Below, in pieces: positions 1 through 64,000 of a stretch of DNA of 64,000 nucleotides. A program made the translations under genes and the position numbers. How positions within the stretch are numbered: position 1 is the first letter of the stretch; every line of letters starts with the position of its first letter. The stretch comes from a virus, in IMG/VR virus record IMGVR_UViG_3300030102_005560, positions 17,288 through 81,287 of that record. The stretch is one strand, 5' to 3'. The notes under the pieces were generated by a model. That model did no database searches. It was not told the DNA's origin and worked only from the letters and a program-made list of their open reading frames with translations.

Positions 1-2
1 AG

Positions 3-821
3 CCAACTTTCCAGCACATCGCTGCAAAGCCAAAGACAATCGCACACACGTTCGATATGTCTGAGACGGCTATCTTCCTAGCAGACAGGGACGACGGATT
101 GGGAGACATCCGAGCAGTCCTCAAGGAAGAGATGGGCAAGCACCACGCTGAGATGGTCAACAAGATGCTCTTGACTGACTGTGACACAGTAGCAGGAAAC
201 AACTTCGAGTCCTTAGACCGAATCACTGCAAGTGACGCAGCAATGAACACATCAGTTCACGTAAACGCAGCAGCAGACTTGGACATATACAGCATCGACA
301 GAAGTGCTAACACTTGGTCCGACGCGGAAGTCAACTGTGACTCAAGCGGAAACGACAGGACACTGTCCCTAGACCAACTGGACACTCTGTTCCAGCAAAT
401 CTGGGAGCGCGGTGGAAACCCCAAGGTTATGCTAACTGGATACGACACTCTGATGAGACTACAGCAACTACTACAGTCCCAGCAGAGATTCATGGAAGAG
501 AAGAGAGTCACACCAACCTACAACGGCGTGAAGGGTGTACCCGGTATGGAAGCCGGATTCATCGTAGCGACCTACAACGGTGTGCCAATCATCCCAACCA
601 AGGACATGGATGACGATGGAACTCTATCCAAGATTTACTACCTAGACACAGACTACCTTTACTTCAGCACTGCGATACCAACCCAGTACTTCGAGTCTGG
701 TATCGAGACTGGCGACCCGTTCGCCATCAACAGGCTAGGTCAGGAAGGACTCTACAGAACGATGGGAGAAGTATGGACCACTTTCTTCGGAGCACAAGGG
801 AGTATTCGTGACCTAAAGTGA
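3..821 (+). CDS. Major capsid protein, HK97-like (5'-truncated by window edge)
   Basis: Frame is open upstream of ATG 57 (PTFQHIAAKPKTIAHTFDM...). C-terminal part has capsid-like motifs (VATYNGVPIIP, IYYLDTDYL, GSIRDLK). Heads the structural operon. Confidence 0.8.
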   Translation, partial: PTFQHIAAKPKTIAHTFDMSETAIFLADRDDGLGDIRAVLKEEMGKHHAEMVNKMLLTDCDTVAGNNFESLDRITASDAAMNTSVHVNAAADLDIYSIDRSANTWSDAEVNCDSSGNDRTLSLDQLDTLFQQIWERGGNPKVMLTGYDTLMRLQQLLQSQQRFMEEKRVTPTYNGVKGVPGMEAGFIVATYNGVPIIPTKDMDDDGTLSKIYYLDTDYLYFSTAIPTQYFESGIETGDPFAINRLGQEGLYRTMGEVWTTFFGAQGSIRDLK

Positions 822-856
822 GGTTGCAAAGGAGAAAATAAAGAGGTGAAAAAGAT

Positions 857-1252
857 ATGGCAACAGAACTAACAGCAACAGCAGCAGGAAGCGCATCAGT
901 GACACTATTGGGAGCATGGGAACTCAGAGCAGGTTCCATGGACACAACAGAATACCTTGACGGAGCAGCAGATGTATCGTACCCCGGTGGGGGTCCCGGT
1001 ACCTTCAACGCATCCAACACAGACGGAGCAAATGGATACGACCCAGCACCAAAGATGGCTCTACTAGAGGTCACCACGGCTAGTGGAACAGCCGCTGTGA
1101 CACTAGCAGGTGGAATCTCATCCGTGCTTATGGTAATGTCCTCTCAGAATGACGGAACAGCCGCCGCTAACAAAGTGGCTTTCTCTGGTAAAGTAGTGAC
1201 TGTCACTGGAGCAACCGCCCAGAAGCACAACGTGCTGGTGATGTACAACTGA
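857..1252 (+). CDS. Putative virion structural/decoration protein
   Basis: GAGGTGA SD upstream; Ala/Gly/Thr-rich beta-type protein directly after the capsid gene. Confidence 0.55.
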   Translation: MATELTATAAGSASVTLLGAWELRAGSMDTTEYLDGAADVSYPGGGPGTFNASNTDGANGYDPAPKMALLEVTTASGTAAVTLAGGISSVLMVMSSQNDGTAAANKVAFSGKVVTVTGATAQKHNVLVMYN

Positions 1253-1263
1253 GGTGACTCTTC

Positions 1264-1677
1264 GTGCCTACTATAACCTACAAAGGACCCTTCTACGAGA
1301 GGAAAAGCCCGGACCCAACAATACCGGCTTTCATTCGTAAAGTAAGCAGGGAAGTCAGTCAGGAATGGCTGAACGAGCACCGTAGGAAAATCAGTGACGC
1401 AGTGTTTCTGATTGAGGGCGACGAAGGAGTTCACCATGACATGGGCGGAGACGGAATCCCTGATGAGGGTTGGACTAGAGCCAACATCATCAAGTGGCTA
1501 GAGGACAATGGAAGCAGCGTGGGTGGAGGATACAAAACGAAGACCAGACTACTCGGTCTCGTGGACAATGTCCTTAACCCACCTGCTCCCGAACCTGTAG
1601 CAGAGCCAGTGGTCGAAGAACCAGTGGTTGAGGAAGCAGTCGAAGAACCAGTCGAGGAGACAACACAGGAGGAATGA
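1264..1677 (+). CDS. Protein with HeH/LEM-like helical motif and acidic Pro/Glu tail
   Basis: GAGGTGA SD, GTG start; WTRANIIKWLEDNG...YKTKTRLLGLV motif followed by EPVVEE repeats. Confidence 0.55.
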   Translation: MPTITYKGPFYERKSPDPTIPAFIRKVSREVSQEWLNEHRRKISDAVFLIEGDEGVHHDMGGDGIPDEGWTRANIIKWLEDNGSSVGGGYKTKTRLLGLVDNVLNPPAPEPVAEPVVEEPVVEEAVEEPVEETTQEE

Positions 1678-1682
1678 AATAA

Positions 1683-1946
1683 ATGGCAATAACATTTGAC
1701 CCAAGACCAACGATAATAGGAAACCTAATGCTAGTCACAGGTACTTTTGAAGACGGCGATACAAGCATAGACTTCTCAGGACATTTGGCTAGTCTAGTTT
1801 ACGGCGATGTAATAGTAGTAGGTGGCGACAACAACCCGACTGAGGAAGCAAACCCAGTAGCAATTGGTGCAAACGGCACTACCTTGCACTTTAGTGAGAG
1901 CGCATCCTTGGGCGGAAGGTTCATTGGCTTAGGTTTCCGCAATTGA
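1683..1946 (+). CDS. Small putative virion protein
   Basis: Tightly packed in the structural operon; beta-rich. Confidence 0.55.
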   Translation: MAITFDPRPTIIGNLMLVTGTFEDGDTSIDFSGHLASLVYGDVIVVGGDNNPTEEANPVAIGANGTTLHFSESASLGGRFIGLGFRN

Positions 1947-1959
1947 GGCGGTGACCTAA

Positions 1960-2154
1960 GTGGCTAACCTAACACCGAAATACAAAGTCGTAGGACCCTT
2001 CTCACCGAAGGAGTTCAGTGACACGTCCACGCTGTCAACGACCATAGCGACTGCTGTGGGTACGTTGGGTGATGCATCAAGCACCACCAGCCTGATAGCA
2101 TCGGACCCCTTTACGGTCTTAGGCAACGTCTACATATTGGTGACATACGTTTGA
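1960..2154 (+). CDS. Small hypothetical protein
   Basis: GGTGA SD, GTG start, operon packing. Confidence 0.55.
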   Translation: MANLTPKYKVVGPFSPKEFSDTSTLSTTIATAVGTLGDASSTTSLIASDPFTVLGNVYILVTYV

Positions 2155-2169
2155 TGGTGAGGGGTATGA

Positions 2170-2469
2170 ATGGGTTTCGAATTGAGAGAACTTGATATCG
2201 AAGACATCTCCCGAGCACAGAAGAAAAACGTACGTTCAGACATAAAATACGACAGCGGTGTGGTTGGGGACAACCCCAATCCCCTGAAAGGCACTGTGCG
2301 CAAGCAGCACAAGAGAGTCAAGGACGTCGCTGATATACTAAACATAGGCTCTGGCACTAGATGCAAGCATTGTGGTTTCCTTCATTTCATGTGGAGAGAG
2401 ACATGTGGCTCTTGTGATAGGCCTATGGAGTACAATCTAGGAAACAGGAATGAGGAGGCAAGGCTCTAA
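2170..2469 (+). CDS. Zinc-ribbon protein
   Basis: CKHC...CGSC; stop overlaps next start (TAATG). Confidence 0.65.
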   Translation: MGFELRELDIEDISRAQKKNVRSDIKYDSGVVGDNPNPLKGTVRKQHKRVKDVADILNIGSGTRCKHCGFLHFMWRETCGSCDRPMEYNLGNRNEEARL

Positions 2470-4151
2470 TGCCACAAGTATTCAGTCCCGGTGAACCTGA
2501 GACAAGACCCCTCGACCCCGATGCACTTGTCTACACGACTCCACAGAAGGTCGCTGACCTACTAGAGATAGGTCCACAAGAACCGGTATTGATGTCTGCT
2601 AACGCAGAGGCTAACGCCGTATTCGTGACAGGAGCGGACTACAGGAACATCGGATTCTCAGTAGGAGACACTCTACTACTGTACTCAGACGCAGACCCCT
2701 TGGGTGTTGACCGTGATATCACTGCAATAACCACTAGTGCAGGCGGCGTCAAACTCGCATTCTCATCCGCTATCAACCCCGGTCTATACGAGACCACGGA
2801 CAATGGATACGTTCAGAACAAGGCATCGTTCACCAACGGTAGAAACAGAGGACTGACCTATGATAAGGTGAAACAACTGATTCTACGTGCGCAAGACAGG
2901 ATAGACAATACCACGCACAACTCATGGAGACCTAACCTAGTCTCCGCCGAGTACATCAACTTCGACACGTACAAACCATACAGGCGAAGGTACTACACGG
3001 ATTACGTCGGCACCACACCGCTCCTATTCCGCAACGTGCAGCAACTGCTGAGGGTCGAACTGTGGCAGGGCGACGATTACAGGGAGATAGGCGCTGCTGA
3101 GGCTCGCCTCAAATTCGCTAAGAACACAACCAGTCTTTCACGCACTGGTGGTGGCACTATGCAGAACACTGCTACGGTTTACATAGCCAACGGCTCAGGG
3201 GTCTACGCTAAATTGGAATCGGTATCACTAGGCGCTGTAGGAGCAGTCACCCATGACAATGCCAAGTTCAGACTGGACTTGGACAACATGAGCAACGCAC
3301 AGACCCTCGCTGACCTCATCAACAAGGAGGACAGGGTATCCGCCAGTGCTGTTGAGTTCATTGATAATGGTGGTACGAAGTTTATCATGCCCGGTTCGAC
3401 ATCGAACGTGGCGGTCCACAACGAGTTCCTCGCAAGCGCCAATGCCGATTACGGCTCGGGAATAGTGAAGATATCCAGCATGAGGGACTCCGTCGGCGGT
3501 GAGGATTCAACTATCGCAGTGGTGGATAACCCAGACACCAACATAGAGGTCTCCCAGACGCACACCGAGACGACCACGACCGTCTCATCCACAGGCGACA
3601 TAAGCGCCGGTACGATGAATATCACAGTCGCTTCCACAGAGGGCTTCGCGCCATCCGGCCTTCTTATGGGCTCTTCCATAGGTGATGTAGTGTTCTACGA
3701 GGGCAAGTCCGGTAATGTGTTCATCAACTGCAAGCAAATAGGCGGTTTCGGGGGTGGCGGTGGTACTGCGTTGAGCAGTGCAGATGCCACCATGACTCAG
3801 CACAGATTCGCCATAGACCTGCAAGGAGGCGCCTCCAGCGGCGACAAGGGAAGGCTCAGGGACTTCTGGATGGATTCAGAGATGGGTATCATCTACTTCA
3901 ACAACTCATACCCGTTCTTCGAGTGGAATGCCGTCAAGGTCGCGTACATCTACGGTGAGAGATACGTCGAGCAGGCCATCGAGGACGTATGCACCAAGAT
4001 GGTGGCTATCGAGTTGCTGATGAGTGACGACAGGAGCGTCCTCATACCAGAGGGAACGCAGAACGTAGACCTCGCATCCAAGATTCAACTATACAGACAG
4101 GACATCGACAGGACCCTTCCTCGATACATAGAGGTGATTACCTTTGAGTAA
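2469..4151 (+). CDS. Head-tail adaptor/connector with large domain insertions
   Basis: YTTPQKVADLL, LILRAQDRID and KVAYIYG..AIEDVCTKMVAIELL resemble gp6/gp15-type adaptor segments, separated by beta-rich inserts; typical position. Confidence 0.6.
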   Translation: MPQVFSPGEPETRPLDPDALVYTTPQKVADLLEIGPQEPVLMSANAEANAVFVTGADYRNIGFSVGDTLLLYSDADPLGVDRDITAITTSAGGVKLAFSSAINPGLYETTDNGYVQNKASFTNGRNRGLTYDKVKQLILRAQDRIDNTTHNSWRPNLVSAEYINFDTYKPYRRRYYTDYVGTTPLLFRNVQQLLRVELWQGDDYREIGAAEARLKFAKNTTSLSRTGGGTMQNTATVYIANGSGVYAKLESVSLGAVGAVTHDNAKFRLDLDNMSNAQTLADLINKEDRVSASAVEFIDNGGTKFIMPGSTSNVAVHNEFLASANADYGSGIVKISSMRDSVGGEDSTIAVVDNPDTNIEVSQTHTETTTTVSSTGDISAGTMNITVASTEGFAPSGLLMGSSIGDVVFYEGKSGNVFINCKQIGGFGGGGGTALSSADATMTQHRFAIDLQGGASSGDKGRLRDFWMDSEMGIIYFNNSYPFFEWNAVKVAYIYGERYVEQAIEDVCTKMVAIELLMSDDRSVLIPEGTQNVDLASKIQLYRQDIDRTLPRYIEVITFE

Positions 4152-4518
4152 TAAGGCGTTTGACCGTAATGACCCGACCTATAACGATTACATGAAACTA
4201 CTCAGCAAGGAGTTCGCAAAAGGCGAGATGCAAGAGGAACTTAAGATGGTCATAACCCAGACTCCTCCCGAGTTCAGGGAGATTATCGAAAGGCAGGAAG
4301 CGGACGTGGCAGGTCTCAGGAAGACACCCGATGGGTATGAGAGGATGAATGGCACACAGGCGTCAGCGGATGAAATCTTGTCGTTAAACAACAATGTGAA
4401 TACCCGTATGTTAAATGAGTCTCCCGCTCTCCGAGAGCACAAGGTGGTGCTGCGCGACGGAAAACTAAGTCCGGACTTTGCATTACATGAGAGGGAAATG
4501 GAGGTCAAGAAATGGTAG
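4144..4518 (+). CDS. Hypothetical protein (neck region)
   Basis: GAGGTGA SD before TTG; overlaps both neighbours. Confidence 0.55.
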   Translation: MSNKAFDRNDPTYNDYMKLLSKEFAKGEMQEELKMVITQTPPEFREIIERQEADVAGLRKTPDGYERMNGTQASADEILSLNNNVNTRMLNESPALREHKVVLRDGKLSPDFALHEREMEVKKW

Positions 4519-4961
4519 CCACGTTCAAGGAAGGCATCGATTTAGTGGTTGACACCCTCAGTGACAACTGGAACAGGGGCAACACTGCCAACTTCAAACC
4601 CGTCATCATAGACATAGCAGAGGTTGGTGCAGAGAGGGGAAAGAGGCTTGACTTGGACAGGACCGATTACGTCCTCGTATTCGAGACGGCACACAACGAA
4701 GAGACACCAGAACTGCTCTACGACTTCGTCACAACCAGAATCAACATCACAGTCGACATGAGAACCACAAGGAGCAGGGCTCACTTCAAACTCATGGAGA
4801 ACGAGATACGCAGACTCATTCACTTATTCAGAAAAGGAGATGGCACGAACATGGACAGATTGGTCTACAAGACGAGGACCGATTTGTCAGACAGAAGCAA
4901 AAAACTGTTCAGAATGACCTATCAGATAGAAGTTGTTATCTTCGCAGAACTAATCCCATGA
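4512..4961 (+). CDS. Putative tail terminator/completion protein
   Basis: 149 aa immediately before tail tube; INITVDMRT..ENEIRRLI...YQIEV pattern. Confidence 0.55.
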   Translation: MVATFKEGIDLVVDTLSDNWNRGNTANFKPVIIDIAEVGAERGKRLDLDRTDYVLVFETAHNEETPELLYDFVTTRINITVDMRTTRSRAHFKLMENEIRRLIHLFRKGDGTNMDRLVYKTRTDLSDRSKKLFRMTYQIEVVIFAELIP

Positions 4962-4971
4962 GGTGTAGAAG

Positions 4972-7029
4972 ATGCCGTCGACAGTATACAAGGGTGACCT
5001 GAGCGAGATTACATTCGGCCATGAGGCTGGTCTGTTCCTAGAGCATGACTATGCAGGGACATTCAGAATCATTTGCAGTTTCGACACTGGTGGCAACGCA
5101 GCCAACGCACCACATCACAACTTGGTCAAGGACACGAGCGTCATCACATTCACAGGTGGGGCTTCAAACACTCCCGTCCACAATGGCATCCTACGATACC
5201 CGAACGGGATGCTCGTCGGTAGCAGACTGATATTCAACGCATCTGGGAACTTCTCCGCAGACGACTACAACTCGACAGGCCGCATCTACACAATAGTGAA
5301 GCAGGAGGTGGCAAACGATGCCAACAACGACAATAACAACAAGACCGAGATTACGGTCACACCTGCGCTCAAGTCAGGTGACACCACCCAAGACATCACG
5401 TCCGCAAGTGGTGACGCAATCACAATCCTACCATTCGGCACACCTGCCATTGACGTCAGCATGGCTCATGATGACGCTGCGAACTTATCAGCGGAGCGCG
5501 TCCTCACTGACCAGTTCGTAGGTCTAGTCAGCACCGTGGCCCTACCGGAGACCAAGGTCGACCTCAAGAGGTACCACGTCGTTGGTCTCGGTCGTGATGT
5601 GGCAGTTCAAGTACCGGGCAGGTTCACCAACCAAGGTGGCTCCTTCGAGTGCAACATACACAACAGTCGTTGGTTCAAGTACTGTCTCGGACAACACGTG
5701 TCCAAGCCATTGAACTCAGCAACCGAGAACGCTGCTACAGGCACATACGTACTCGCTACGAATAAACCAGCCAATCCCGGTGACTCGTACATAGAAATCA
5801 CCGATAACAGTGGTACGGACGACCCTTCCTTCGATAGCACATCCGTTGGTGTGGGTGACTATGTCATACTCGACACAGCATCGGAGATGGTCGACGTCCA
5901 GACGTACAGGGAGACAGGAGTCGGTGGTGGGCTTGTCGCTGATGCATGGCCAGCAGTCAACGCCACGCAGATATTCGACAAGGCAATCAAGCAGCAGATA
6001 AGGAGGATAGTGTCATTCTCCGCGAGCAGCGGTGACTGCAAGATATGGCTCGACCAACCTCTTGACTACGGTCACCCAGTCAGCGGCACGGTCGTCACTT
6101 TCGCTAGATATGCAGCAGGTTCAACAGCCGGTAGCCCTCATCGAACGGCAACCACTGGTGACCTCGTTAATGGCATCGAGCACCTCTACTTCTCCAGAAC
6201 CACGGTCCCGTCCTTCGCCATGGAAGTCAGCGTCAGGAGGAGGGACTTGGACAGCAACGCCGGTACCACTGACGGGGGAACTGGTGACTCCAAGCAACTC
6301 ACCCGTGTCTTCCGTGGATGCAAGGTCAAGGACTTCAGCCTGACAGCGGATACTGATGCGGCCCTCAGGATGACCGTCAACTTCGACTCAGCGCTCTGCT
6401 ATACCGACACAGGTAGATTGGAGAGCACAAACAAGGGTGACAGGTACGACACGCACAGGCTCTTCGAGGACACAGGAAACACCGTGCTCAGCAGGAAGGT
6501 GTCAGGCATCGAGAAGGGAACCCAGAAGCCATTCATGTTCTACAACGGCACGATGCGAGTCCTCGGTCAGAGTCTGGGTCAAGTCGTGTCCTTCACACTC
6601 AACGGCAAGACCGGCGTCGAGCAGTTCTACACCATAAGCGGTGCCAATGTCGCTGACTCGGCCACAGACCAAGTCCCATTCGCTGGTACTAGGAATCCCA
6701 CACTAGCAGTGGAGGGCAAGACGGAGTACGACCTAGAGATGGAAATCATAGTCGATGACCCAATCTTTTACCACAACATGAGGAGGGCCGTCGCTAACTT
6801 CGATGACACTGACGAAACCGGGCAGACGGACAATGACATGATACGGCTCACATTCACCAAGTCAGGCTCCGGTAGCACGAGGGAGAATCTGGAGATACTC
6901 ATCGATGACTACTTCATCACCGAAGCACCACTACCAATACCAGAGGACAAGGGGCCCATACGAAGCAAACTGAAGATTCTACCAAAGTCAGTCAAGGTGA
7001 TTGGCAGGGATACGATACTGAGTCCGTAG
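4972..7029 (+). CDS. Major tail tube protein with inserted domains
   Basis: Tube-like segments (VPGRFTNQGGSFE, PSFAMEV, RVFRGCKVKDFSLT, PFMFYNG); lies upstream of chaperones and tape measure. Confidence 0.7.
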   Translation: MPSTVYKGDLSEITFGHEAGLFLEHDYAGTFRIICSFDTGGNAANAPHHNLVKDTSVITFTGGASNTPVHNGILRYPNGMLVGSRLIFNASGNFSADDYNSTGRIYTIVKQEVANDANNDNNNKTEITVTPALKSGDTTQDITSASGDAITILPFGTPAIDVSMAHDDAANLSAERVLTDQFVGLVSTVALPETKVDLKRYHVVGLGRDVAVQVPGRFTNQGGSFECNIHNSRWFKYCLGQHVSKPLNSATENAATGTYVLATNKPANPGDSYIEITDNSGTDDPSFDSTSVGVGDYVILDTASEMVDVQTYRETGVGGGLVADAWPAVNATQIFDKAIKQQIRRIVSFSASSGDCKIWLDQPLDYGHPVSGTVVTFARYAAGSTAGSPHRTATTGDLVNGIEHLYFSRTTVPSFAMEVSVRRRDLDSNAGTTDGGTGDSKQLTRVFRGCKVKDFSLTADTDAALRMTVNFDSALCYTDTGRLESTNKGDRYDTHRLFEDTGNTVLSRKVSGIEKGTQKPFMFYNGTMRVLGQSLGQVVSFTLNGKTGVEQFYTISGANVADSATDQVPFAGTRNPTLAVEGKTEYDLEMEIIVDDPIFYHNMRRAVANFDDTDETGQTDNDMIRLTFTKSGSGSTRENLEILIDDYFITEAPLPIPEDKGPIRSKLKILPKSVKVIGRDTILSP

Positions 7030-7623
7030 GTGAATGAGATGTGGCCGGGGAATCTAGAGAGAGTGCAGAAGTACAACCGAGTCTCACACGAGCAGTACAT
7101 CTCTTGGCTTCTTGCTAGGATAGACCTGCCCATGAGGCCGGTGTTCCTCACTACCAGAACTAGGGAGGACGTGGATGAGATTGTCCTGTCATCGATAGAG
7201 AAGAAGCCGACACAGACGCCATCATGGGTAGAGGCTGCGCAGAAGAGCCTAGAGGAAGAGGTTGAGGAAGAGGTTGAGGAAGAGGTTGAGGAGCCCTCAC
7301 AACCTGAGGTGGCACCACAAGACAATCCATTTTCCGCTCCTGACTATGATTCATGGACAGTAGTAGAACTAAGAGAAGAGTGCAAGAACAGGGGAATAAC
7401 CGTTCGAGGCACCAAAGCAGAGGTCGTTCTGCGTCTCCGAAGAGATGACGAAGGCCTGACACAAGACCCAGTCGAACCAGACGAAGACGAGTCTGAGGCC
7501 CCCGTCGAAGAGACGGCTGCTGATGACTCGTCGGATGCCCCCTCTGAGGAAGAGGCTGCAACCGAGGAAGTGACACCAGATGCCGATAGCGGAGAAACAA
7601 GCAATATTGAAGAAGAAGAATGA
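7030..7623 (+). CDS. SAP-domain acidic protein (start uncertain)
   Basis: YDSWTVVELREECKNRGITVRGTKAEVVLRL fits the SAP consensus; acidic low-complexity flanks. Confidence 0.7.
   Translation: MNEMWPGNLERVQKYNRVSHEQYISWLLARIDLPMRPVFLTTRTREDVDEIVLSSIEKKPTQTPSWVEAAQKSLEEEVEEEVEEEVEEPSQPEVAPQDNPFSAPDYDSWTVVELREECKNRGITVRGTKAEVVLRLRRDDEGLTQDPVEPDEDESEAPVEETAADDSSDAPSEEEAATEEVTPDADSGETSNIEEEE
7252..7287 (+). repeat. Tandem 12-bp coding repeat (GAGGAAGAGGTT)x3
   Basis: Read directly; encodes EEEV x3. Confidence 0.9.
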
Positions 7624-7942
7624 ACAGAAGTACGAGATAAAAGTCGACCCGGATGACCATGAGCAAATCATGGAAATCTGGATTCGGGACATCACGTTCT
7701 TCGACGTGCAAAAAGCAGCACAGAACATGTTCCTGATGAACGGGGATGAAGTATCATTAGACCTAGAGGGATACTGGAGTTATGCTTTCTCGGAATGGGT
7801 AGTGAGGACCAACCCAGAACTGACAGTGAGCGAACTGAAGGAGATAAACTCCTTTGCGGGCCAACAGATAGCAGCGTTGCTACCCAAGCCAGATGAACTG
7901 GCGGAGGCGATGCAAGGGGGTTTTACGAAGGCGAGCAACTGA
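7580..7942 (+). CDS. Tail assembly chaperone (gpG-like)
   Basis: Lies between tube and tape measure genes; slippery site near 3' end. Confidence 0.7.
   Translation: MPIAEKQAILKKKNEQKYEIKVDPDDHEQIMEIWIRDITFFDVQKAAQNMFLMNGDEVSLDLEGYWSYAFSEWVVRTNPELTVSELKEINSFAGQQIAALLPKPDELAEAMQGGFTKASN
7918..7924 (+). other. Programmed -1 ribosomal frameshift site G_GGT_TTT
   Basis: Canonical X_XXY_YYZ heptamer in correct phase; -1 frame open from 7924 to 8217. Confidence 0.85.
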
Positions 7943-8217
7943 AGGTTCAGCGATTCTTACAGAGGAAGACAATCAAATCCACTGAAGACATAGACTTGCA
8001 GAATCAGTTGTTCGCCTACATCGTGGCAAAACATTACGGCATATCATTGAGTGAGGTGTATAACATGGGGCAGGAGATATTCAAACAGTCGCTAATCTGG
8101 GCCCTAGCAATCCAAGAAGAGGAGAGGAAGGAGCAACGCAGACAGCAGGCTGAGAGCGCAACCAGCAACGAGACAGTCACCTTCGACTACGACTTCCTGC
8201 ATCAGGAGGACTTCTGA
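7924..8217 (+). CDS. Frameshift extension of tail chaperone (gpT-like part of gpGT)
   Basis: Reads YEGEQLKVQRFLQRKTIKSTEDIDLQNQLFAYIVAKHYGISLSEV...; includes track ORF 7996..8217, which has only a TTG start. Confidence 0.75.
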   Translation, partial: YEGEQLKVQRFLQRKTIKSTEDIDLQNQLFAYIVAKHYGISLSEVYNMGQEIFKQSLIWALAIQEEERKEQRRQQAESATSNETVTFDYDFLHQEDF

Positions 8218-9116
8218 TGGCACTGGGAGCGCTGAGCACATCACTGGGCATGGTGCAGGGACTGCTCTCCTCCATCGGTGGGAGCATGGGTAGCCTCGGT
8301 GGCATCGCCAACAGCATAGGCAACGCGCTGGCTGGTGCCTTCAATGCAGCATCGGTAGCGGCTAGGAAGGCCTACAATGAAATGAACGACTTCTACAAAG
8401 AGCATGTGGAGCCGCAGTTTGAGGCTTTCGCAAAAAAGGCTGGGCCTGTCTTCGAGGACATCAAGAATGGCTTCAAGGAATTAGCGGAGTTCATGAGCGG
8501 AATCTGGAATGGGGTGGTCATCCCGATATTCTCCTTCTTCAAGGATTACGCCTCGATGGTATTCAGCCTGCTCACAGGGGATTTTGAAGAGGCAGCAGCC
8601 AAGGCTGAAGGTATCTTCGAGGACCATATAATGCCCATTGCTACTTCTTTGAAAACGGCATTCGGCGGCGTGATTGAGAACCTAAAGGAGGTTGTGACTG
8701 CGGCCTTTGGCATCTTCAGCACCGTATCAGGACAGATAGGCGATGCCTTTAGCACGATATACGATACCGTAGTCCAACCGATTCTAGATGGCATATCTGG
8801 TGCCATCGATTTCATAGTCGGTGGGATAGGCACGATACTCAAGGGACTAGCCGATATAGGAAGCAGCGTCATCGGAGGCGCTGTGGGAATCGGCAAGAAG
8901 TTAGGTGGCGGTGCTAAGAGCCTAATCGGTGGCGGTGGTGGCTCCGATGCTGGCACGACGGTCGAAGGCGGCGTGAGTCAGACATTCAACATCACGGTGA
9001 ATGCGGGCGGCATTACGGACAGGTCAGACAAGAGGTCCCTAGCGACAGAGATAGGAAGGATGATTCAGGAGGAGACCGCTCGTTCGGTCGGTGGCAGCAG
9101 GTATGCGAGTAGGTGA
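8217..9116 (+). CDS. Short tape measure protein
   Basis: Amphipathic Ala/Gly-rich helical protein with periodic F/W; C-terminal TFNITVNAGG..LATEIGRMIQEE; follows the frameshifted chaperone. Confidence 0.7.
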   Translation: MALGALSTSLGMVQGLLSSIGGSMGSLGGIANSIGNALAGAFNAASVAARKAYNEMNDFYKEHVEPQFEAFAKKAGPVFEDIKNGFKELAEFMSGIWNGVVIPIFSFFKDYASMVFSLLTGDFEEAAAKAEGIFEDHIMPIATSLKTAFGGVIENLKEVVTAAFGIFSTVSGQIGDAFSTIYDTVVQPILDGISGAIDFIVGGIGTILKGLADIGSSVIGGAVGIGKKLGGGAKSLIGGGGGSDAGTTVEGGVSQTFNITVNAGGITDRSDKRSLATEIGRMIQEETARSVGGSRYASR

Positions 9117-10387
9117 GTGAGATGCCAGCAGGAGTCCCGATAAGGCTAGTTCAGGAGAACGGAAAACTCATCGAGTTAGACGCTACCAACATGACCCTCT
9201 CTACAGAGCGTAAGGTCGGCGGCGCACCGATGCCCTTCACAGGCAGCCTGAGGCTAGGCGCTGACTTCAACGTCAATACGGCACTCATCAACATACAGGG
9301 TGTCATCGTGGATGACCGAGAAGGCTCCTCTAGCGCCAAGGCCTCCAGCCTCATCAACTTCGGCAGGCAGGGCGGCTCCAACATCTCTAGGGCTTGGGCT
9401 ACGTATGACAACGTCAATTCGCTTCTGGACAGAGGCATCAAGAAGATAGTATTCGAGAATGCCGCTGGCACTGATAAGGTAGTCACCTTCACCGAGAGCG
9501 GCTCCCTCATCAGCGGCGAGGTCGCTGCATACAGCGCCACTGGTGGTACTAATAACACTCCGACCGTGTTGGTGTACCTCTCACCTGACTTGCAGAGCGC
9601 ATCAGACACGACAGTGGAGAACGCACAGAGGCTCCTTGCCAAGAAGGTCGCATCGGCGGTGGCTGCCCTTATCAATGCGCAGCACTCATCCACGCTCACT
9701 GCTGCTGTGGAGACGGTTGCTGACTATGAGGGTGCAAGGGACACCTACGGTGTGAGAGTAACCCAAGTGTCCTTCGGTGCCACGGGCAACAACGCATCAC
9801 CGTACTGGACCATAGGCGGCTCCAACAACACGTACAACTCGGTGCTGTTCTCACAACCCGACCAGACCACCTTCTCTGGTGGCATCACTGGTGGCAAGAA
9901 GTCCGCTGGTGACAAGGCCATGGACCTGTATGGCATACTCAACAACAGCGTGACTGACACAGGCAGGAAACTAGCAGGCGTCGGCGCTGTCGTAGGTGGC
10001 CTTGCTGGTGCGGTTTTTGGAGGACCAGCGGGTGTCGTGGGAGGCGGCGCATTGGCGCTTAGTGGCCTCTCTACAGTAGTCCGCTCTACGGAGGATGACA
10101 GGAAGGACTACATCATCGGCATACAGATACCATACAACTCCACCATAACCTCCACGGACGGCGAACTCTACACGGCAAGGAACTTCTTCATGCCCACTGG
10201 TTTCGGCAAGCATGGCCTTGACAAGACGTCAGTGAACAACACCAATCCAGCCAGTGTCGAGTTCGATACCGGCGATGCGTTCACTGGAATACAAGGTGCC
10301 GTCCAGAAGATGGACATAGCATACGATGCTGGTGAGACTGTGTACAACTTCAACATGCTATTCGCTCCGGTAGACGTGCTGATTTGA
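9113..10387 (+). CDS. Distal tail (Dit-like) protein with inserted domain
   Basis: Follows tape measure; N-terminal beta motifs (LINIQGVIVD) and C-terminal GAVQKMDIAYDAGETVYNFNMLF. Confidence 0.5.
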   Translation: MSEMPAGVPIRLVQENGKLIELDATNMTLSTERKVGGAPMPFTGSLRLGADFNVNTALINIQGVIVDDREGSSSAKASSLINFGRQGGSNISRAWATYDNVNSLLDRGIKKIVFENAAGTDKVVTFTESGSLISGEVAAYSATGGTNNTPTVLVYLSPDLQSASDTTVENAQRLLAKKVASAVAALINAQHSSTLTAAVETVADYEGARDTYGVRVTQVSFGATGNNASPYWTIGGSNNTYNSVLFSQPDQTTFSGGITGGKKSAGDKAMDLYGILNNSVTDTGRKLAGVGAVVGGLAGAVFGGPAGVVGGGALALSGLSTVVRSTEDDRKDYIIGIQIPYNSTITSTDGELYTARNFFMPTGFGKHGLDKTSVNNTNPASVEFDTGDAFTGIQGAVQKMDIAYDAGETVYNFNMLFAPVDVLI

Positions 10388-10402
10388 TTCGAGGGAAGTG
10401 AT

Positions 10403-30620: not shown

Positions 30621-30621
30621 A

Positions 30622-41206: not shown

Positions 41207-41233
41207 GGTGCAGAATCTACACCGCCTAGTTAT

Positions 41234-41458
41234 TCAACTTTCTCCGCCGCTGGTCATTCTAGGCAACAAGTTTCTCTTCTTTTTGAATACGGAGTCCTGC
41301 CAGAAGTGCCCGCATTTCTTGCACTGCCACAGTTGTATTCTCTTCTTTATCGCAGTGGTATCCCCGTTGTGGTATCTAGCAGTGAGACGATGTGGGACGT
41401 GAGTGTGATTGCAGTTTCTACACTTCACTTCCAACCGCTTCATCAGTCGTCCCATCAC
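41234..41458 (-). CDS. Zinc-ribbon protein (TFS/TFIIS C-terminal-like)
   Basis: VKCRNC...WQCKKCGHFWQD; start overlaps thermosome stop. Confidence 0.6.
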   Translation of the reverse strand: MMGRLMKRLEVKCRNCNHTHVPHRLTARYHNGDTTAIKKRIQLWQCKKCGHFWQDSVFKKKRNLLPRMTSGGES

Positions 41459-54365: not shown

Positions 54366-54525
54366 ATTTCCACCTCTTCTCATCTCTTCCATTGATTTCA
54401 TCAACGGATTTTCTCAAGTTATCCACTACCATGGTCAGGTTGGCAATCTCCACCTCGACCCCAGCAAGTCCTCTTTGTATTGTGAGGCCCAATTCTTCAA
54501 TGTCTATGCTTCTTAATTCACTCAT
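54355..54525 (-). CDS. 56-aa coiled-coil microprotein (not in ORF track)
   Basis: MSELRSIDIEELGLTIQRGLAGVEVEIANLTMVVDNLRKSVDEINGRDEKRWKYDR; ATGA overlap with RFC stop. Confidence 0.6.
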   Translation of the reverse strand: MSELRSIDIEELGLTIQRGLAGVEVEIANLTMVVDNLRKSVDEINGRDEKRWKYDR

Positions 54526-55469
54526 ATTCTTTCACTTTCCTTTTTCATTTTCGCCACCATATAGTCTAGGTAGGAATAGTCATCGCCGCTCCACGTATGC
54601 TTGTGTACCAGCACATCGCCATACACAGCCATCATGGGCCAGAGAACAGGGTACACCTCGTCATCGAAGTGTTTCCTCATGTTCCTGTAGAACCCGCTCA
54701 GCACATTGTGGAGTGGTGCACCAGAGTCGAGCAGTGCATGAAGGTTCCGTCTGAGTTTGTGCCACTCGTCTTTCACAATCAACTCAGCATTGTCATCAGA
54801 GGCCATTGCCTCTAGGAGTTCAATCCTCTCTTGGAGAGTGTCTATGGCCATCCCGTCGAGGAACATGACGCATGCGCGTATGTCCCCGTTCATCGCTCTG
54901 GTGAGTCTCCTCAGGAGTTCATCCAGTTTGAACCAGTACGCATGCCACTCCCTTCCCAGTATCGCACTCAGACGGTTGGCACCTGCGCTCTCTGACACGG
55001 GCTTGAAGGCATAGGTCTTGCATCTGGAGCGTATCGCAGGTCTGACCTTCTCCAAGTCGTTGCACGTGAGAATCAGCATGGCGTTCTTGGAGTACTTCTC
55101 TATGATTTGCCTCATGGCGTCCTGTGCTGTAGGTGTGAGACCATCAGCCTCATCCAGAAGGACGACCTTCCTCTCTGCTCCTATTGACTTGGCCCTCATG
55201 GCGAACTTGAGTTCGCTCCTGATGAAGTCAATGCCCCTGTCGTCACTCGCATTCGTCTCTATGAAGTTCATCTCGTTGAAGTGCTCACCCAGCATCGTCC
55301 TCGCTATCACTGTAGCAGCACTGGTCTTGCCTATCCCCGGTGGGCCATGAAACAACAACGCTTGGGGATATGACCCCTCGTTCTCCCAACCCTCGACGTC
55401 CTCGACCAGTTTATCCAGTCCGACTAGGTCATTGAGGGTCTGGGGTATCGCTCTCTCAATCAGTCTCAT
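54522..55469 (-). CDS. rfcS: Replication factor C small subunit (clamp loader)
   Basis: GPPGIGKT, NASDDRGID, LDEAD, IRSRC. Confidence 0.95.
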   Translation of the reverse strand: MRLIERAIPQTLNDLVGLDKLVEDVEGWENEGSYPQALLFHGPPGIGKTSAATVIARTMLGEHFNEMNFIETNASDDRGIDFIRSELKFAMRAKSIGAERKVVLLDEADGLTPTAQDAMRQIIEKYSKNAMLILTCNDLEKVRPAIRSRCKTYAFKPVSESAGANRLSAILGREWHAYWFKLDELLRRLTRAMNGDIRACVMFLDGMAIDTLQERIELLEAMASDDNAELIVKDEWHKLRRNLHALLDSGAPLHNVLSGFYRNMRKHFDDEVYPVLWPMMAVYGDVLVHKHTWSGDDYSYLDYMVAKMKKESERI

Positions 55470-55482
55470 ACGCACTGAACGG

Positions 55483-61612: not shown

Positions 61613-61916
61613 CTCCCTTTGTTTTTATTCTCAGGAATTTGTTGGTTTTCTTACACATCATAACCTCACCTTTGTCTGTTACCAAACACGTACAACCTGT
61701 GCATTCAACCGTACTATCAAGGGGGCAGTACCTACCCCTCCCATCGAATGATGCATATAGAACCTTGCACTCTAGTTGACCATCGTTGAAGTAAAACTTG
61801 AGTTCGGCACCAACTATGTCCATTATGAGATTCTCGGGAAGCGGGAAGAGCCCATCCCCATCCACCTCGCTCATGGTGAACTCGTGGTGACCTTTCCACG
61901 GGAACTTATCGCTCAT
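61596..61916 (-). CDS. Hypothetical Cys-containing protein
   Basis: ATGA overlap with upstream gene. Confidence 0.55.
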   Translation of the reverse strand: MSDKFPWKGHHEFTMSEVDGDGLFPLPENLIMDIVGAELKFYFNDGQLECKVLYASFDGRGRYCPLDSTVECTGCTCLVTDKGEVMMCKKTNKFLRIKTKGDDNNE

Positions 61917-63901
61917 GCCAGAGCCCCCCTTCTGTAGTCACGTTCCCATATCGATACGACGTTGAACCCCATCTCACTGAGTATCCTCTCCTTCTCCATC
62001 TGCGACTCGTGCAACTCACGGGCTGTCACGTCACTGTGTGGGTGTGGTGTTGCTTCTGGTGAGAAGCACTCAGGGTTGCCATGCCAGACATCACCATTGA
62101 ACTCGTACGCTGTGTTGGTCTCCTCGCAGTACCCATCTAGGAGGTAGTACCTCCCACTGCCCAACTCGACTCTCAGTTCGCCTCCGTTCTCGGCATGCTG
62201 GATTTCCACGTTCTCCATCTTGGATATCTTGTTCAGCCAGTTGATGGCCATCCTCGAGTAGTTGCTCGGCTCCCTGCCTAGGGAGTAAGTCACGTCAGGT
62301 GGAACCTTGCCGGTCCAGTGCCCTCTCCTCTCCTTGATGATGCTGTACCTGCTCTTGTCGTCAGGACCCACTGGGTCATAGACGGCGTACTTGTCGTAGT
62401 CCTTGATGTAGAACCTGCACAGGTGTGGCCTGACATACCTCGCAGCGGTGTTGCTCTTGCGCTTCCTGCCACCGGGGTAGATGTACTGCACCCTGTCCGT
62501 GCCCCATACCAACTTCCTCTCCACTCTCATCTTGGGCACCTTGTGCCTCAGTGCCTTCCTCACGGTCTTGGGGTCGACGCCTGTCGATACCTTGACCGTC
62601 TTCAACGAGCCTCTCATCTCAGGTGAGTTGAGAGCGCATATCAGTTTGGTAGCCAACTCCAGTTGGTTCGGCAGTTCCTTGTCATAGTTGGTGGTGCCTT
62701 CGGTCGGGTCTAGGTAGATGCCCACTGACTCCGCTGCTAGGTAGTTCTCGAAGTCAGCAGCAGCACCACCGAGCGAGGAGGGCTCGAGCCCCATGGTCTC
62801 GAACACCTCCTTGAACTCAGCCTTGTTCCTTACCTTCTCCCTCTTCCTTCCGAAACTGAACATCCTCCGTATGTCAGTAGAGGTGATTCTCTCAGGTAGC
62901 GCCTCGACCTTCATGGTCTTCACGCTGACTGCCTTCAATCCTCCTTGCGGCGCCTGCCCAATCGGCTCGTGTGCCATGCACAGGACGTCGTTCTCTACCC
63001 ATAGGCTCAGTGCAATCTCCTCGTTGTACTTGTCTAGGTTCTTGAACATGAACCTCGTGCCCTTCTCCAAGTAAGACGAGGCTAGGAACAACTCCCTAGG
63101 TATGGAGAGTTGCGCATTGCTCACTCTCGATAGTATTGACTTCCTGACCTCTATCGTCTCGAACCTCTCGCTGATGCGCCTGAATCTCCTCCCCATGTGC
63201 ATCAGGAACAACTGGGATGTCTGTGGTGTGTAGAGGCTACCGAAGAATCTCTCATACTCCGTCTCAGCGCTATCGGATTTAGAATCGGCTGCTATTCTCG
63301 CCATGGCTTGCGCTGTCAGCGTGCCTACCCCGAGGCCTTCGATGCAGCCGTCCTGTCTGAGTCTGCCGAACCCGAACATGCCACTGGTTTGCAGCACCAA
63401 CCACGCGGGGGGCGAGAGTCTCATGGTGCCGAGGGTATCAATCCCATCCAACTCTATCGAGTTATCCAGAACGGCGGTGTGCAGGAGGAAGCAAGGTTGC
63501 CCGATATCGACTATGAAATCGTCGGGGGTTATGTTCTTGTTACAACGCCGCACCATATCTGCAAAGGTCTCGAGAGTCACAACCACCGTTGTCATGTCGA
63601 AGGTCCTGAACATGTCATCTACCTCTGCTCCCCTCGCTGGTCTGCCATCGACCTCGTACTGCTTCAGAACATACGAGTCATTGTACAGTCCCATCAGGTC
63701 GAACACGGGCTCCTCAGTGGGGAAGGAGAAGACCACATGGTCGCAGCCACTCAGTTCTACGAACGACTCCAAGTTCATGTTGGCCGTATGGTCCTCCACC
63801 AACAGAGTGTCACCGGGATACATGGCTGACTCAATCGCGTCGGCGGCTCTCTCCATTCGCTTACGGTACTTTTGCAATTCAGGTATCTTGGGTGTAATCA
63901 T
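61913..63901 (-). CDS. Large protein with C-terminal Vsr/DUF559-like endonuclease domain
   Basis: S.MAINWL..IQHAENGGE..LDGY...NTAYEFNGDVWHG...GFNVVSIWE. Confidence 0.7.
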   Translation of the reverse strand: MITPKIPELQKYRKRMERAADAIESAMYPGDTLLVEDHTANMNLESFVELSGCDHVVFSFPTEEPVFDLMGLYNDSYVLKQYEVDGRPARGAEVDDMFRTFDMTTVVVTLETFADMVRRCNKNITPDDFIVDIGQPCFLLHTAVLDNSIELDGIDTLGTMRLSPPAWLVLQTSGMFGFGRLRQDGCIEGLGVGTLTAQAMARIAADSKSDSAETEYERFFGSLYTPQTSQLFLMHMGRRFRRISERFETIEVRKSILSRVSNAQLSIPRELFLASSYLEKGTRFMFKNLDKYNEEIALSLWVENDVLCMAHEPIGQAPQGGLKAVSVKTMKVEALPERITSTDIRRMFSFGRKREKVRNKAEFKEVFETMGLEPSSLGGAAADFENYLAAESVGIYLDPTEGTTNYDKELPNQLELATKLICALNSPEMRGSLKTVKVSTGVDPKTVRKALRHKVPKMRVERKLVWGTDRVQYIYPGGRKRKSNTAARYVRPHLCRFYIKDYDKYAVYDPVGPDDKSRYSIIKERRGHWTGKVPPDVTYSLGREPSNYSRMAINWLNKISKMENVEIQHAENGGELRVELGSGRYYLLDGYCEETNTAYEFNGDVWHGNPECFSPEATPHPHSDVTARELHESQMEKERILSEMGFNVVSIWERDYRRGALA

Positions 63902-64000
63902 TCAACCATCTCACTAGCAATCATGCCAATCAGCATCTTGTTCTGCATCTCCAGCAGTTCGATTATCCTATCCAGTTTCCTCTCCACTGCTTTGTCATGC
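63898..64000 (-). CDS. 3' end of hypothetical gene (runs off window)
   Basis: ...HDKAVERKLDRIIELLEMQNKMLIGMIASEMVE*; ATGA overlap with next gene. Confidence 0.55.
   Translation of the reverse strand, partial: HDKAVERKLDRIIELLEMQNKMLIGMIASEMVE

What the first reader, a model, noticed from the sequence alone, without database searches (positions are those of the whole stretch)
1..64000. Apparent genome-wide purge of GATC, AGCT and CCWGG by synonymous recoding
Seen: I found none of these sites in the stretches read base by base (36001-36540, 41461-42000, 48661-49320) and noticed none elsewhere. Roughly 250 of each 4-mer and 125 CCWGG are expected by chance in 64 kb. Codon choices fit active avoidance: GAG-ATA/ATT instead of GAG-ATC; GAA-CTN or GAG-TTG instead of GAG-CTN; C-CTA-G, C-TTG-G and C-CAA-G instead of C-CTG-G or C-CAG-G. 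TCGA, CTAG, GTAC and GGCC are common. Inference: long-term selection against three host restriction or methylation-sensing specificities, extending to the compositionally different fibre modules. This would fingerprint the host clade.
Basis: partly seen in the sequence, partly recalled or inferred. Interest (0 to 1): 0.7.

Follow-up and report, generated by a model that had tools for sequence, protein, structure and literature searches.

The report
Magrovirus genome purged of restriction words
This marine archaeal virus, and every relative sampled, has removed all copies of GATC and CCWGG (and, in all but one clade, AGCT) by choosing synonymous codons; this is a known anti-restriction strategy, here order-wide and absolute although the hosts' cutting enzymes remain unidentified.

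Summary
The window, and the whole 81,287-bp virus contig it comes from, contain 0 GATC, 0 AGCT and 0 CCWGG. A shuffle that preserves proteins and codon usage gives 251±13, 332±14 and 190±11. Avoidance is achieved by context-dependent synonymous codon choice; for example ATC is 52% of Ile codons but 0 of 376 after a G-ending codon. CTGCAG and several other 6-mer palindromes are also missing.

The genome looks like a magrovirus, a tailed virus of marine group II archaea (Poseidoniales). All 25 related contigs (PolB identity 42-94%, 39-54% GC) lack GATC and CCWGG, and 23 of 25 lack AGCT. The one clade that keeps AGCT has gained a 261-aa C5 cytosine methyltransferase. Host genomes show a weaker depletion of the same words (AGCT 0.40, GATC 0.50), and a published methylome reports GATC and AGCT modification in Poseidoniia.

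The best reading is restriction-site avoidance under ongoing selection. The weak point is that cognate host nucleases were not found (DpnII 0 of 151, MutH/Sau3AI 0 of 151, EcoRII-C 1 of 151).

This is a known kind of phenomenon, and I did not find it reported for magroviruses in the papers searched. The scan has noted the same three-word avoidance on other marine archaeal virus windows.

The parts
1..64000 (.). Whole window (G000:C1:17288-81287): zero GATC, AGCT and CCWGG on both strands, and also zero CTGCAG, CCCGGG, GCTAGC, AACGTT and GCCGGC
   Evidence: counts against Markov and codon-preserving shuffles
1..10402 (+). Structural and tape-measure-like genes. Counts against Markov expectation: GATC 0/42, AGCT 0/39, CCWGG 0/18
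   Evidence: The tape-measure-like PHROG hits are for 8217-9116
10403..28834 (+). Giant 6143-aa ORF, a putative tail or adhesin protein with a Laminin_G_3 domain. Counts: GATC 0/72, AGCT 0/73, CCWGG 0/46
28831..40547 (+). Tail and fibre-type genes, including the compositionally different 1601-aa ORF at 35742-40547 (GC 0.483). The purge also holds here: 0/29 and 0/35 in 28831-35716, and 0/18 and 0/14 in the low-GC ORF
   Evidence: (weak Phage-tail_3 hit)
40913..41206 (-). Conserved 97-aa ORF that marks the far side of the methyltransferase slot. It is 75% identical to the ORF that follows the C5 MTase in the AGCT-retaining relative
41207..41454 (-). Slot downstream of the chaperonin. It holds only a 74-aa ORF, which ends inside this interval (41234-41458). 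In relatives G001 and G002 the same slot holds a 261-aa C5 cytosine methyltransferase
41455..42951 (-). Cpn60/TCP-1 family chaperonin, a magrovirus hallmark in the replication module
   Evidence: (PF00118, E 1e-125), and PMC5434244
45020..45730 (-). ERCC4/XPF-type structure-specific nuclease with HhH. It is a repair-type enzyme, not a sequence-specific restriction enzyme
47369..48313 (-). PD-(D/E)XK (Cas4/RecB-like) nuclease
48668..51031 (-). Family B DNA polymerase. I used it to find 25 related viral loci and to build the tree
54522..55475 (-). RFC-like clamp-loader AAA+ ATPase

Best explanation
The window belongs to a magrovirus-like tailed dsDNA virus of marine group II archaea (Poseidoniales). 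Its genome has been kept free of GATC, AGCT and CCWGG, and largely free of CTGCAG and a few other 6-bp palindromes. The cause is purifying selection against any mutation that creates one of these words. About 5% of all point substitutions would create one. Removal costs nothing at the protein level, because each word can be avoided in all three reading frames by a context-dependent synonymous codon. The most likely selective agent is sequence-specific host nucleases that cut these words when unmethylated, that is, Type II-like restriction activities circulating in Poseidoniales populations. A virus has two ways out. It can lose the word, which is the ancestral state of the group. Or it can methylate the word itself, which one derived clade does for AGCT after gaining a small C5 cytosine methyltransferase between the chaperonin gene and a conserved 97-aa gene. 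The following are shown: the absolute absence, the synonymous mechanism, conservation across the group, ongoing selection, the complementarity between the MTase and AGCT, and the weaker depletion of the same words in host genomes. The following are inferred: that nucleases are the agent, that the viral MTase methylates AGCT, and which host genes are responsible.
For: (1) The counts are zero against 250-340 expected per word under Markov and codon-preserving nulls. (2) Codon context is absolute in all three frames. (3) All 25 relatives found through PolB lack GATC and CCWGG, and all 25 sampled loci lack CTGCAG (the whole G001 record has 3). These relatives span 42-94% identity, 39.5-53.6% GC and many independent metagenomes. 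Twenty-three of the 25 lack AGCT. (4) Selection is ongoing. There are about 3,500 nucleotide differences between G000 and L001 over 17.7 kb. About 175 new forbidden words would be expected and none is seen, and four other relatives give the same result. (5) Methylation and AGCT are complementary. PF00145 MTase is present in G001 and G002 (AGCT 112 and 138 copies). It is absent from G000, G003 (98% complete) and G004 (100% complete), which have AGCT = 0. All five magrovirus contigs carrying the 92-100% identical MTase keep AGCT at 65-86% of expectation while still lacking GATC and CCWGG. On the PolB tree the AGCT-positive state is one derived clade. (6) Hosts show the same pattern more weakly. 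In 180 kb from six Poseidoniales genomes, AGCT (O/E 0.40) and GATC (0.50) are the two most depleted 4-bp palindromes in the pooled counts and CCWGG is 0.72, while TCGA, TGCA and GCGC are about 1.0. The rRNA-flank sample of 94 loci gives the same ranking. (7) PMC8919816 reports GATC methylation across marine archaeal MAGs and weak AGCT modification across Ca. Poseidoniia MAGs. (8) Hosts do carry sporadic R-M-type loci, often at contig ends. Examples are a C5 MTase with an EcoRII-C-like nuclease in G049, a Dam-like MTase with a PD-(D/E)XK nuclease in G124, and a Dam-like MTase beside a Type IIG enzyme and a McrB-like ATPase in G097. (9) Lineage-specific extra purges are phylogenetically coherent: CTAG and GTAC in one clade, GTWAC, GGWCC and different 6-mers elsewhere. 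Host families also differ in CTAG content.
Against: Recognisable cognate endonucleases are nearly absent from 151 sampled Poseidoniales species genomes. DpnII/MboI was found in 0, MutH/Sau3AI in 0, EcoRII-C in 1 and Mrr_cat in 4-5. C5 MTases occur in only 31 of 151 genomes and strong Dam-type hits in about 13 of 151. The one widespread MTase is an orphan PF01555 enzyme in a housekeeping neighbourhood. It is confined to Poseidoniaceae (5 of 5, against 0 of 5 Thalassarchaeaceae), so it cannot by itself explain a purge shared by all viral lineages. PMC8919816 also found that most marine MTases are orphans, with only four M-R pairs. The specificity of the viral MTase is unproven, and its closest solved relatives are uninformative. 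These host genomes are mostly incomplete MAGs, which lose variable islands, so absence is weak evidence.
Confidence: 0.75

Rival explanations
1. The virus is avoiding being methylated rather than avoiding classical restriction. Hosts methylate GATC, and perhaps CCWGG or AGCT, with orphan MTases. The virus sheds the target words so that its DNA is never marked or hemimethylated. This would escape methyl-dependent (Type IV, Mrr/McrBC-like) nucleases in other strains. It would also escape methyl-directed nicking of the kind proposed for GATC counterselection in enterobacteriophages (Dam/MutH; cited from my own knowledge: McClelland 1985; Deschavanne and Radman 1991).
For: A conserved orphan PF01555 MTase lies in a housekeeping block in about 90 of 151 sampled genomes and in 5 of 5 Poseidoniaceae. 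GATC methylation is widespread in marine archaeal MAGs and most MTases there are orphans (PMC8919816). Classical GATC and CCWGG endonuclease families were essentially not found. An McrB-like AAA_5 protein and Mrr_cat-like proteins exist in some host islands.
Against: MutH was found in 0 of 151 genomes and Mrr_cat in only 4-5 of 151. For AGCT the evidence points the other way, because the clade that keeps the word has acquired a methyltransferase, so methylation is protective. The orphan MTase is missing from Thalassarchaeaceae, yet every viral lineage lacks GATC. Depletion of the same words in the host is the usual mark of classical R-M exposure.
Confidence: 0.12
2. The virus itself makes a sequence-specific nuclease that degrades host DNA at these words, as chlorovirus R-M enzymes do. 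It is immune because its own genome lacks the sites, or methylates them in the MTase-carrying clade.
For: The virus encodes several nucleases: PD-(D/E)XK, ERCC4 and a 3'-5' exonuclease. It also has many ORFs with no family assignment. The MTase/AGCT complementarity is also compatible with self-protection.
Against: The nucleases found belong to recombination and repair families, not to known restriction families. No MTase-nuclease pair is visible next to the viral MTase, whose neighbours are the chaperonin and a 97-aa ORF. At least three unrelated specificities, plus clade-specific extras, would each need their own viral nuclease. Host GATC is reported to be methylated and would resist a DpnII-type enzyme.
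Confidence: 0.04
3. There is no selection on the words as such. The absence is an artefact of sequencing or assembly, or passive mimicry of host oligonucleotide usage, or mutational decay such as deamination of m5C at AGCT and CCWGG.
For: Hosts are also depleted in these words. m5C deamination can erode methylated sites.
Against: The same zeros occur in 25 or more contigs from independent metagenomes and in public runs from at least 14 studies. ORFs are intact and the avoidance is strictly synonymous and context-dependent. Hosts are at O/E 0.4-0.7, not zero. GATC carries m6A, which is not mutagenic. The deamination products (AGTT/AACT, CTWGG/CCWAG) show no special excess. Decay cannot produce 0 of about 800 while 3,500 substitutions accumulate.
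Confidence: 0.02

Closest known systems
Haloarchaeal tailed viruses: either encode a Dam-type MTase and carry GATC, or lack both (Liu et al. 2021, PMC8651126)
   Same: These are archaeal Caudoviricetes. A 4-bp palindrome is purged completely unless the virus carries the matching methyltransferase, and the authors read this as escape from host R-M.
   Different: Here the hosts are uncultured marine Poseidoniales. No sampled magrovirus keeps GATC. The either/or relation is seen for AGCT with a C5 (not N6) MTase. Three short words plus several 6-mers are purged at once across the whole viral group.
Restriction-site avoidance in virulent phages generally (survey: Rusinov et al. 2018, PMC6286503; total loss of GATC in Staphylococcus phage K is cited from my own knowledge)
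   Same: Short palindromic Type II-like words are under-represented or absent, the removal is synonymous, and the effect is stronger in the virus than in the host.
   Different: In the classical cases the host's cognate enzyme is known (for example Sau3AI). Here the cognate nucleases were not found in 151 host genomes, so the viral genome is the main evidence that they exist.
GATC counterselection in enterobacteriophages T7 and T3 by the Dam/MutH system (my own knowledge: McClelland 1985; Deschavanne and Radman 1991)
   Same: The host has an orphan adenine MTase, there is no cognate Type II enzyme, and the phage is still depleted in GATC.
   Different: No MutH homologue was found in Poseidoniales (0 of 151). 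The depletion here is total, and it includes AGCT and CCWGG.
Phage-encoded C5 MTases that shield a subset of restriction sites (earlier scan notes e1-5703456 and e1-6021232)
   Same: A virus-encoded methyltransferase goes together with retention of otherwise purged words.
   Different: In the window's own genome no MTase is present and nothing is retained. The shielding is seen only in a sister clade (G001 and G002).

Membership tests
Restriction-site (short palindrome) avoidance by a virus | Word counts lie far below a null that preserves protein sequence and codon usage | tested here: met
   0 against 251±13, 332±14 and 190±11. CTGCAG is 0 against 24.6±4.6.
Restriction-site (short palindrome) avoidance by a virus | The avoided words are palindromes of the Type II recognition-site kind, while non-target palindromes are unaffected | tested here: met
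   Only GATC, AGCT and CCWGG are zero among the 4-5-mers tested. TCGA, CTAG, GTAC and ACGT are near expectation.
Restriction-site (short palindrome) avoidance by a virus | Avoidance is achieved by synonymous, context-dependent codon choice | tested here: met
   All eight codon contexts tested show 0% use of the otherwise common codon.
Restriction-site (short palindrome) avoidance by a virus | The host encodes R-M systems of the same specificities | tested here: inconclusive
   MTases are present (PF01555 in about 90 of 151, PF00145 in 31 of 151, Dam-type in about 13 of 151). Methylation of GATC and AGCT is published. One EcoRII-C pair was found. DpnII was found in 0 of 151 and MutH/Sau3AI in 0 of 151. 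Specificities cannot be assigned without REBASE or experiments.
Restriction-site (short palindrome) avoidance by a virus | Reciprocity: the word is retained where the virus carries a protective methyltransferase | tested here: met
   This holds for AGCT only, and the MTase specificity is inferred.
Restriction-site (short palindrome) avoidance by a virus | Site-bearing viral DNA is demonstrably cleaved by the host | not testable with these tools
Magroviruses (tailed viruses of Marine Group II archaea) | A genome of about 65-110 kb with a near-complete replication module (PolB, RFC and others) that contains a chaperonin gene, plus a Caudoviricetes-type tail module | tested here: met
   compared with the description in PMC5434244. 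A primase-like PHROG hit at 45947-47062 is weak.
Magroviruses (tailed viruses of Marine Group II archaea) | Phylogenetic placement with reference magrovirus genomes, or a direct host link (CRISPR spacer or tRNA) | not tested
   Reference magrovirus sequences were not in the collections searched (one search gave no hit at 60% identity or more). No tRNA is present. The host assignment rests on gene content, the marine source and the literature.
Dam/MutH-type GATC counterselection | A MutH-like GATC nicking endonuclease in the host | tested here: not met
   PF02976 was found in 0 of 151 Poseidoniales genomes, and the E. coli control was positive.

The most novel reading that the evidence does not exclude
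Poseidoniales, among the most abundant planktonic archaea, may carry an ancient, order-wide restriction barrier against unmethylated GATC, AGCT and CCWGG. It would be run by nucleases that belong to no recognised restriction family, or that sit in variable islands MAGs fail to assemble. The absolute, family-wide motif purge of magroviruses would be its only visible footprint so far. If this is so, the clade-specific purge sets (CTAG/GTAC, GTWAC, GGWCC and particular 6-mers) could be read as a map of R-M specificities and host ranges for uncultured hosts.
Probability: 0.3. Interest if true: 0.75.

Novelty: new member of a known kind. Interest (0 to 1): 0.55.

Why it matters
Magroviruses and their Poseidoniales hosts are abundant in the surface ocean, and neither has been cultured, so nothing is known directly about their defence and counter-defence.

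The purge shows that sequence-specific attack on GATC, AGCT and CCWGG has been strong and continuous since before the sampled magrovirus lineages diverged. About one point mutation in twenty in these genomes is forbidden for this reason.

Recognisable restriction enzymes are scarce in host MAGs, so the viral genomes point to restriction activities that remain to be found.

There are also practical uses:
- The clade-specific extra purges, together with differences between host families such as CTAG content, give a testable way to assign viruses to host lineages.
- The small viral C5 methyltransferase is a simple candidate for an AGCT-protecting enzyme.
- The word set gives a cheap filter for recognising magrovirus-like contigs in metagenomes.

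Tried and rejected
**Routes to host genomes**
- The viral chaperonin failed as a bridge.
The organism titles it returned verified it.

**Candidate host enzymes**
- DpnII, EcoRII-C, MutH/Sau3AI and Mrr_cat were found in 0 to 5 of 151 genomes.
- DUF7004, which lies next to one Dam-like MTase, occurs in 1 of 151 genomes, so it is not a general partner.
- The gene next to the conserved PF01555 MTase is an M24 peptidase, not a nuclease.

**Methyltransferase specificity**
- Homology to solved structures did not settle the specificity of either MTase.
- I considered whether the viral MTase might be a broad GC, GCY or RGCY enzyme. CTGCAG and GGCC stay depleted in the MTase-carrying viruses. That argues against broad GC protection but does not prove AGCT specificity.

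**Other checks**
- No deamination signature was seen among the one-substitution neighbours of the purged words.
- The population-variant test was underpowered. Only 40 of about 900 variant places were listed. I replaced it with the divergence test.
- Loose contig ends containing GATC lie on nothing in the window, and I drew no inference from them.
- No structure prediction or complex prediction was run, because neither would bear on the question.


Full report
**What is there**

The window is bases 17,288-81,287 of a single 81,287-bp linear viral contig, which CheckV estimates to be 81% complete. It has about 52.5% GC and is 96% coding.

One arm carries structural genes. These include tape-measure-like genes, a giant 6,143-aa ORF and tail genes. 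The opposite strand carries a replication module with a Cpn60/TCP-1 chaperonin, ERCC4 and PD-(D/E)XK nucleases, a family B DNA polymerase and an RFC-like clamp loader. No tRNA gene was found.

This gene content, especially the chaperonin inside the replication module, matches the published description of magroviruses, the tailed viruses of marine group II archaea (PMC5434244). Near-identical DNA occurs in marine and seawater metagenomes from at least 14 studies between 2014 and 2025. I did not place the contig phylogenetically against reference magrovirus genomes.

**The observation**

GATC, AGCT, CCAGG and CCTGG each occur zero times in the window and zero times in the whole contig.

| Word | Observed | Markov expectation, whole contig | Codon-preserving shuffle |
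|---|---|---|---|
| GATC | 0 | 342 | 251±13 (minimum 217) |
| AGCT | 0 | 306 | 332±14 (minimum 292) |
| CCWGG | 0 | 178 | 190±11 (minimum 153) |

The shuffle permutes synonymous codons within each gene, so it preserves every protein and the codon usage. It used 300 shuffles.

No other 4-mer or 5-mer is missing. Several 6-bp palindromes are missing or nearly so:
- CTGCAG: 0 against 18-25
- GCTAGC: 0 against 11-18
- GCCGGC: 0 against 7-18
- AACGTT: 0 against 10-12
- CCCGGG: 0 against 7-12
- ACCGGT: 4 against 17-25

The zeros hold in every module.

**How the words are avoided**

Codon choice depends on the neighbouring codon, and the effect is absolute:
- ATC is the commonest Ile codon (52%) but is never used after a codon ending in G (0 of 376).
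- GAT is 40% of Asp codons but 0 of 226 before a C.
- GCT is the commonest Ala codon but 0 of 446 after an A.
- AGC is the commonest Ser codon but 0 of 285 before a T.
- Leu after NAG is always TTR (70 of 70).
- Pro before GG is always CCC or CCG (71 of 71).
- CAG (0 of 48) and CTG (0 of 190) vanish between C and G.

**Is it real, and is it selected?**

Using PolB as a probe I found 25 related IMG/VR loci from many different metagenomes. They span 42-94% PolB identity and 39.5-53.6% GC. All 25 lack GATC, CCWGG, CTGCAG and CCCGGG. Twenty-three lack AGCT. Two complete relatives of 111 kb and 102 kb are also at zero for the three words. An assembly artefact is excluded.

About 5% of all possible point substitutions in this genome would create one of the words. 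The contig differs from its nearest relative at about 3,500 positions over 17.7 kb. That should have produced roughly 175 new sites, and neither genome has any. Four other relatives give the same result.

A direct population test was underpowered. None of the 40 listed natural variants creates a word, against about 2 expected.

The one-substitution neighbours of the words show no excess of deamination products.

**The key natural experiment**

Two relatives, L017 and L018 (whole records G001 and G002), carry AGCT. Both encode a 261-aa C5 cytosine methyltransferase (PF00145, E 4e-45). The window's genome and the two complete AGCT-free genomes encode neither PF00145 nor PF01555.

A search with this MTase found three more magrovirus contigs carrying it at 92-94% identity. 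All five keep AGCT at 65-86% of expectation while still lacking GATC and CCWGG. On a PolB tree the AGCT-keeping viruses form one well-supported clade nested among AGCT-free lineages. So the purge is ancestral, and retention with the MTase is derived.

The MTase sits in a defined slot between the chaperonin gene and a conserved 97-aa gene that is 75% identical between the two viruses. In the window that slot holds only a 74-aa ORF.

In G001, AGCT is at normal density only in the 15 kb around the MTase, and is about tenfold rarer in the other 40 kb. That suggests either a recombinant genome or one that is only beginning to re-accumulate sites.

This either/or pattern is the one reported for GATC and Dam in haloarchaeal tailed viruses (PMC8651126). 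It shows that an unmethylated AGCT is the liability. That the MTase targets AGCT is an inference from this pattern, and homology to solved structures does not decide it.

**Lineage-specific additions**

On top of the shared core, different viral clades have purged further words:
- CTAG and GTAC in the G004 clade (0 against 268 and 0 against 326)
- GTWAC in L001 and L025
- GGWCC in L016
- Different sets of 6-mers in G003 and G004

These states are coherent on the PolB tree.

**The host side**

I reached Poseidoniales genomes with the MGII 16S probe sequence Eury806.

In 94 loci around rRNA operons the three words are present but depleted: O/E is 0.59, 0.64 and 0.72, against about 1.0 for CTAG and TCGA. 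In 180 kb of ordinary chromosomal DNA from six genomes, AGCT (0.40) and GATC (0.50) are the two most depleted 4-bp palindromes in the pooled counts.

A SMRT metaepigenome study reports GATC methylation in nearly all marine archaeal MAGs. It also reports weak AGCT modification signals across Ca. Poseidoniia MAGs. The same study finds that most marine MTases are orphans (PMC8919816).

Among 151 sampled Poseidoniales species genomes:

| Family | Genomes with a match |
|---|---|
| PF01555 (N6/N4 MTase) | about 90 |
| PF00145 (C5 MTase) | 31 |
| PF02086 (Dam-type MTase), strong hits | about 13 |
| PF04556 (DpnII/MboI nuclease) | 0 |
| PF02976 (MutH/Sau3AI) | 0 |
| PF09019 (EcoRII-C nuclease) | 1 |
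| PF04471 (Mrr_cat nuclease) | 4-5 |

The PF01555 enzyme is a conserved protein of about 318 aa. It lies in a syntenic housekeeping block beside phosphoglycerate kinase, an M24 peptidase and a histone-fold protein, with no nuclease beside it. It was present in 5 of 5 Poseidoniaceae and 0 of 5 Thalassarchaeaceae genomes. It is therefore an orphan, family-level core gene, and it cannot by itself explain a purge shared by all viral lineages.

The sporadic MTases sit in defence-like contexts, often at contig ends:
- a C5 MTase convergent with an EcoRII-C-like nuclease
- a Dam-like MTase convergent with a PD-(D/E)XK protein
- a Dam-like MTase between a Type IIG enzyme and a McrB-like ATPase
- tandem Dam-like MTases next to an unknown 444-aa ORF

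So R-M systems exist in these archaea, but the enzymes that would account for the core purge were not identified. MAG incompleteness and the poor recognisability of restriction enzymes are plausible reasons, not demonstrated ones.

**Fingerprinting**

The three-word core is common to all sampled magroviruses, so it can mark the host order at most. Finer signals may lie in the extras.

Most Poseidoniaceae are CTAG-poor (0.17-0.35 of zero-order expectation). Thalassarchaeaceae and a few Poseidoniaceae are CTAG-rich (0.5-1.25). This parallels the split between CTAG-purged viruses (the G004 clade) and CTAG-rich viruses such as this one (0.85). It is a correlation to be tested, not a host assignment.

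**Verdict**

The best explanation is restriction-site avoidance maintained by strong, ongoing purifying selection. Self-methylation is the alternative escape, used by one clade for AGCT. My confidence is about 0.75.

The main rival is avoidance of host methylation or of methyl-dependent attack, particularly for GATC. It is weakened by the protective role of the viral MTase, by the absence of MutH, by the rarity of Mrr-type nucleases, and by the family-restricted distribution of the orphan MTase.

The phenomenon is of a well-known kind. None of the three main magrovirus papers I read mentions restriction, methylation or motif avoidance. I therefore rate it a new member of a known kind.

Earlier notes of this scan record the same three-word avoidance on other marine archaeal virus windows, and one case of Dam-shielded sites.

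Noticed in passing
window 10403-28834 (+): A single 6,143-aa ORF lies between tape-measure-like genes and tail genes. The only Pfam hit is a Laminin_G_3 (concanavalin-like lectin) domain near the N-terminus. It is probably a giant tail, fibre or adhesin protein.
   Followed up: partly
L145-L147 (G001, IMGVR_UViG_3300030061_002072): AGCT density is normal (10-19 per 2.5 kb) in the first 15 kb around the C5 MTase. It is about tenfold lower (0-4 per 2.5 kb) in the remaining 40 kb. This suggests a recombinant genome, or recent relaxation of selection after the MTase was gained.
   Followed up: partly
L226 / L227 (IMGVR_UViG_3300049736_000338 and the 160-kb contig IMGVR_UViG_3300025132_000021): A larger marine virus carries a more distant relative (51% identity) of the C5 MTase. 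In 20.8 kb it has zero ACGT, AGCT, CGCG, CTAG, GATC, GTAC, TCGA and CCWGG, a far more extreme purge.
   Followed up: no
L275-L280 (for example L276:5393-6385, -): A conserved orphan N6/N4 DNA methyltransferase of about 318 aa (PF01555) lies in a syntenic block with phosphoglycerate kinase, an M24 peptidase and a histone-fold gene. It was found in 5 of 5 Poseidoniaceae and 0 of 5 Thalassarchaeaceae genomes, and is a candidate for the lineage-wide GATC methylation reported in the literature.
   Followed up: partly
L028-L105 (host rRNA-flank loci): CTAG content of host DNA is bimodal. Most Poseidoniaceae are at 0.17-0.35 of expectation, while Thalassarchaeaceae and a few Poseidoniaceae are at 0.5-1.25.
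   Followed up: partly
L281:542-2222 (+) and L281:2244-3578 (-): A Poseidoniales contig has two tandem Dam-like MTases followed by a convergent 444-aa ORF with no Pfam family. This layout is reminiscent of DpnII-type cassettes, and the ORF is a candidate for an unrecognised GATC endonuclease.
   Followed up: no
window 48473-48496: In contigs from two independent public runs, 22 bases of the intergenic region between the PD-(D/E)XK nuclease gene and PolB are replaced by about 150 other bases. This is a population indel polymorphism.
   Followed up: no
window 7030-7623 (+): A 197-aa protein with a SAP DNA-binding domain lies in the structural arm. SAP is mostly known from eukaryotic and archaeal chromatin-associated proteins.
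   Followed up: no
whole contig G000: CGCG (65 against 158 by Markov, 164 by codon shuffle), TATA, TTAA and GGCC are partially depleted. CGCG methylation is reported for some marine Euryarchaeota in PMC8919816.
   Followed up: no
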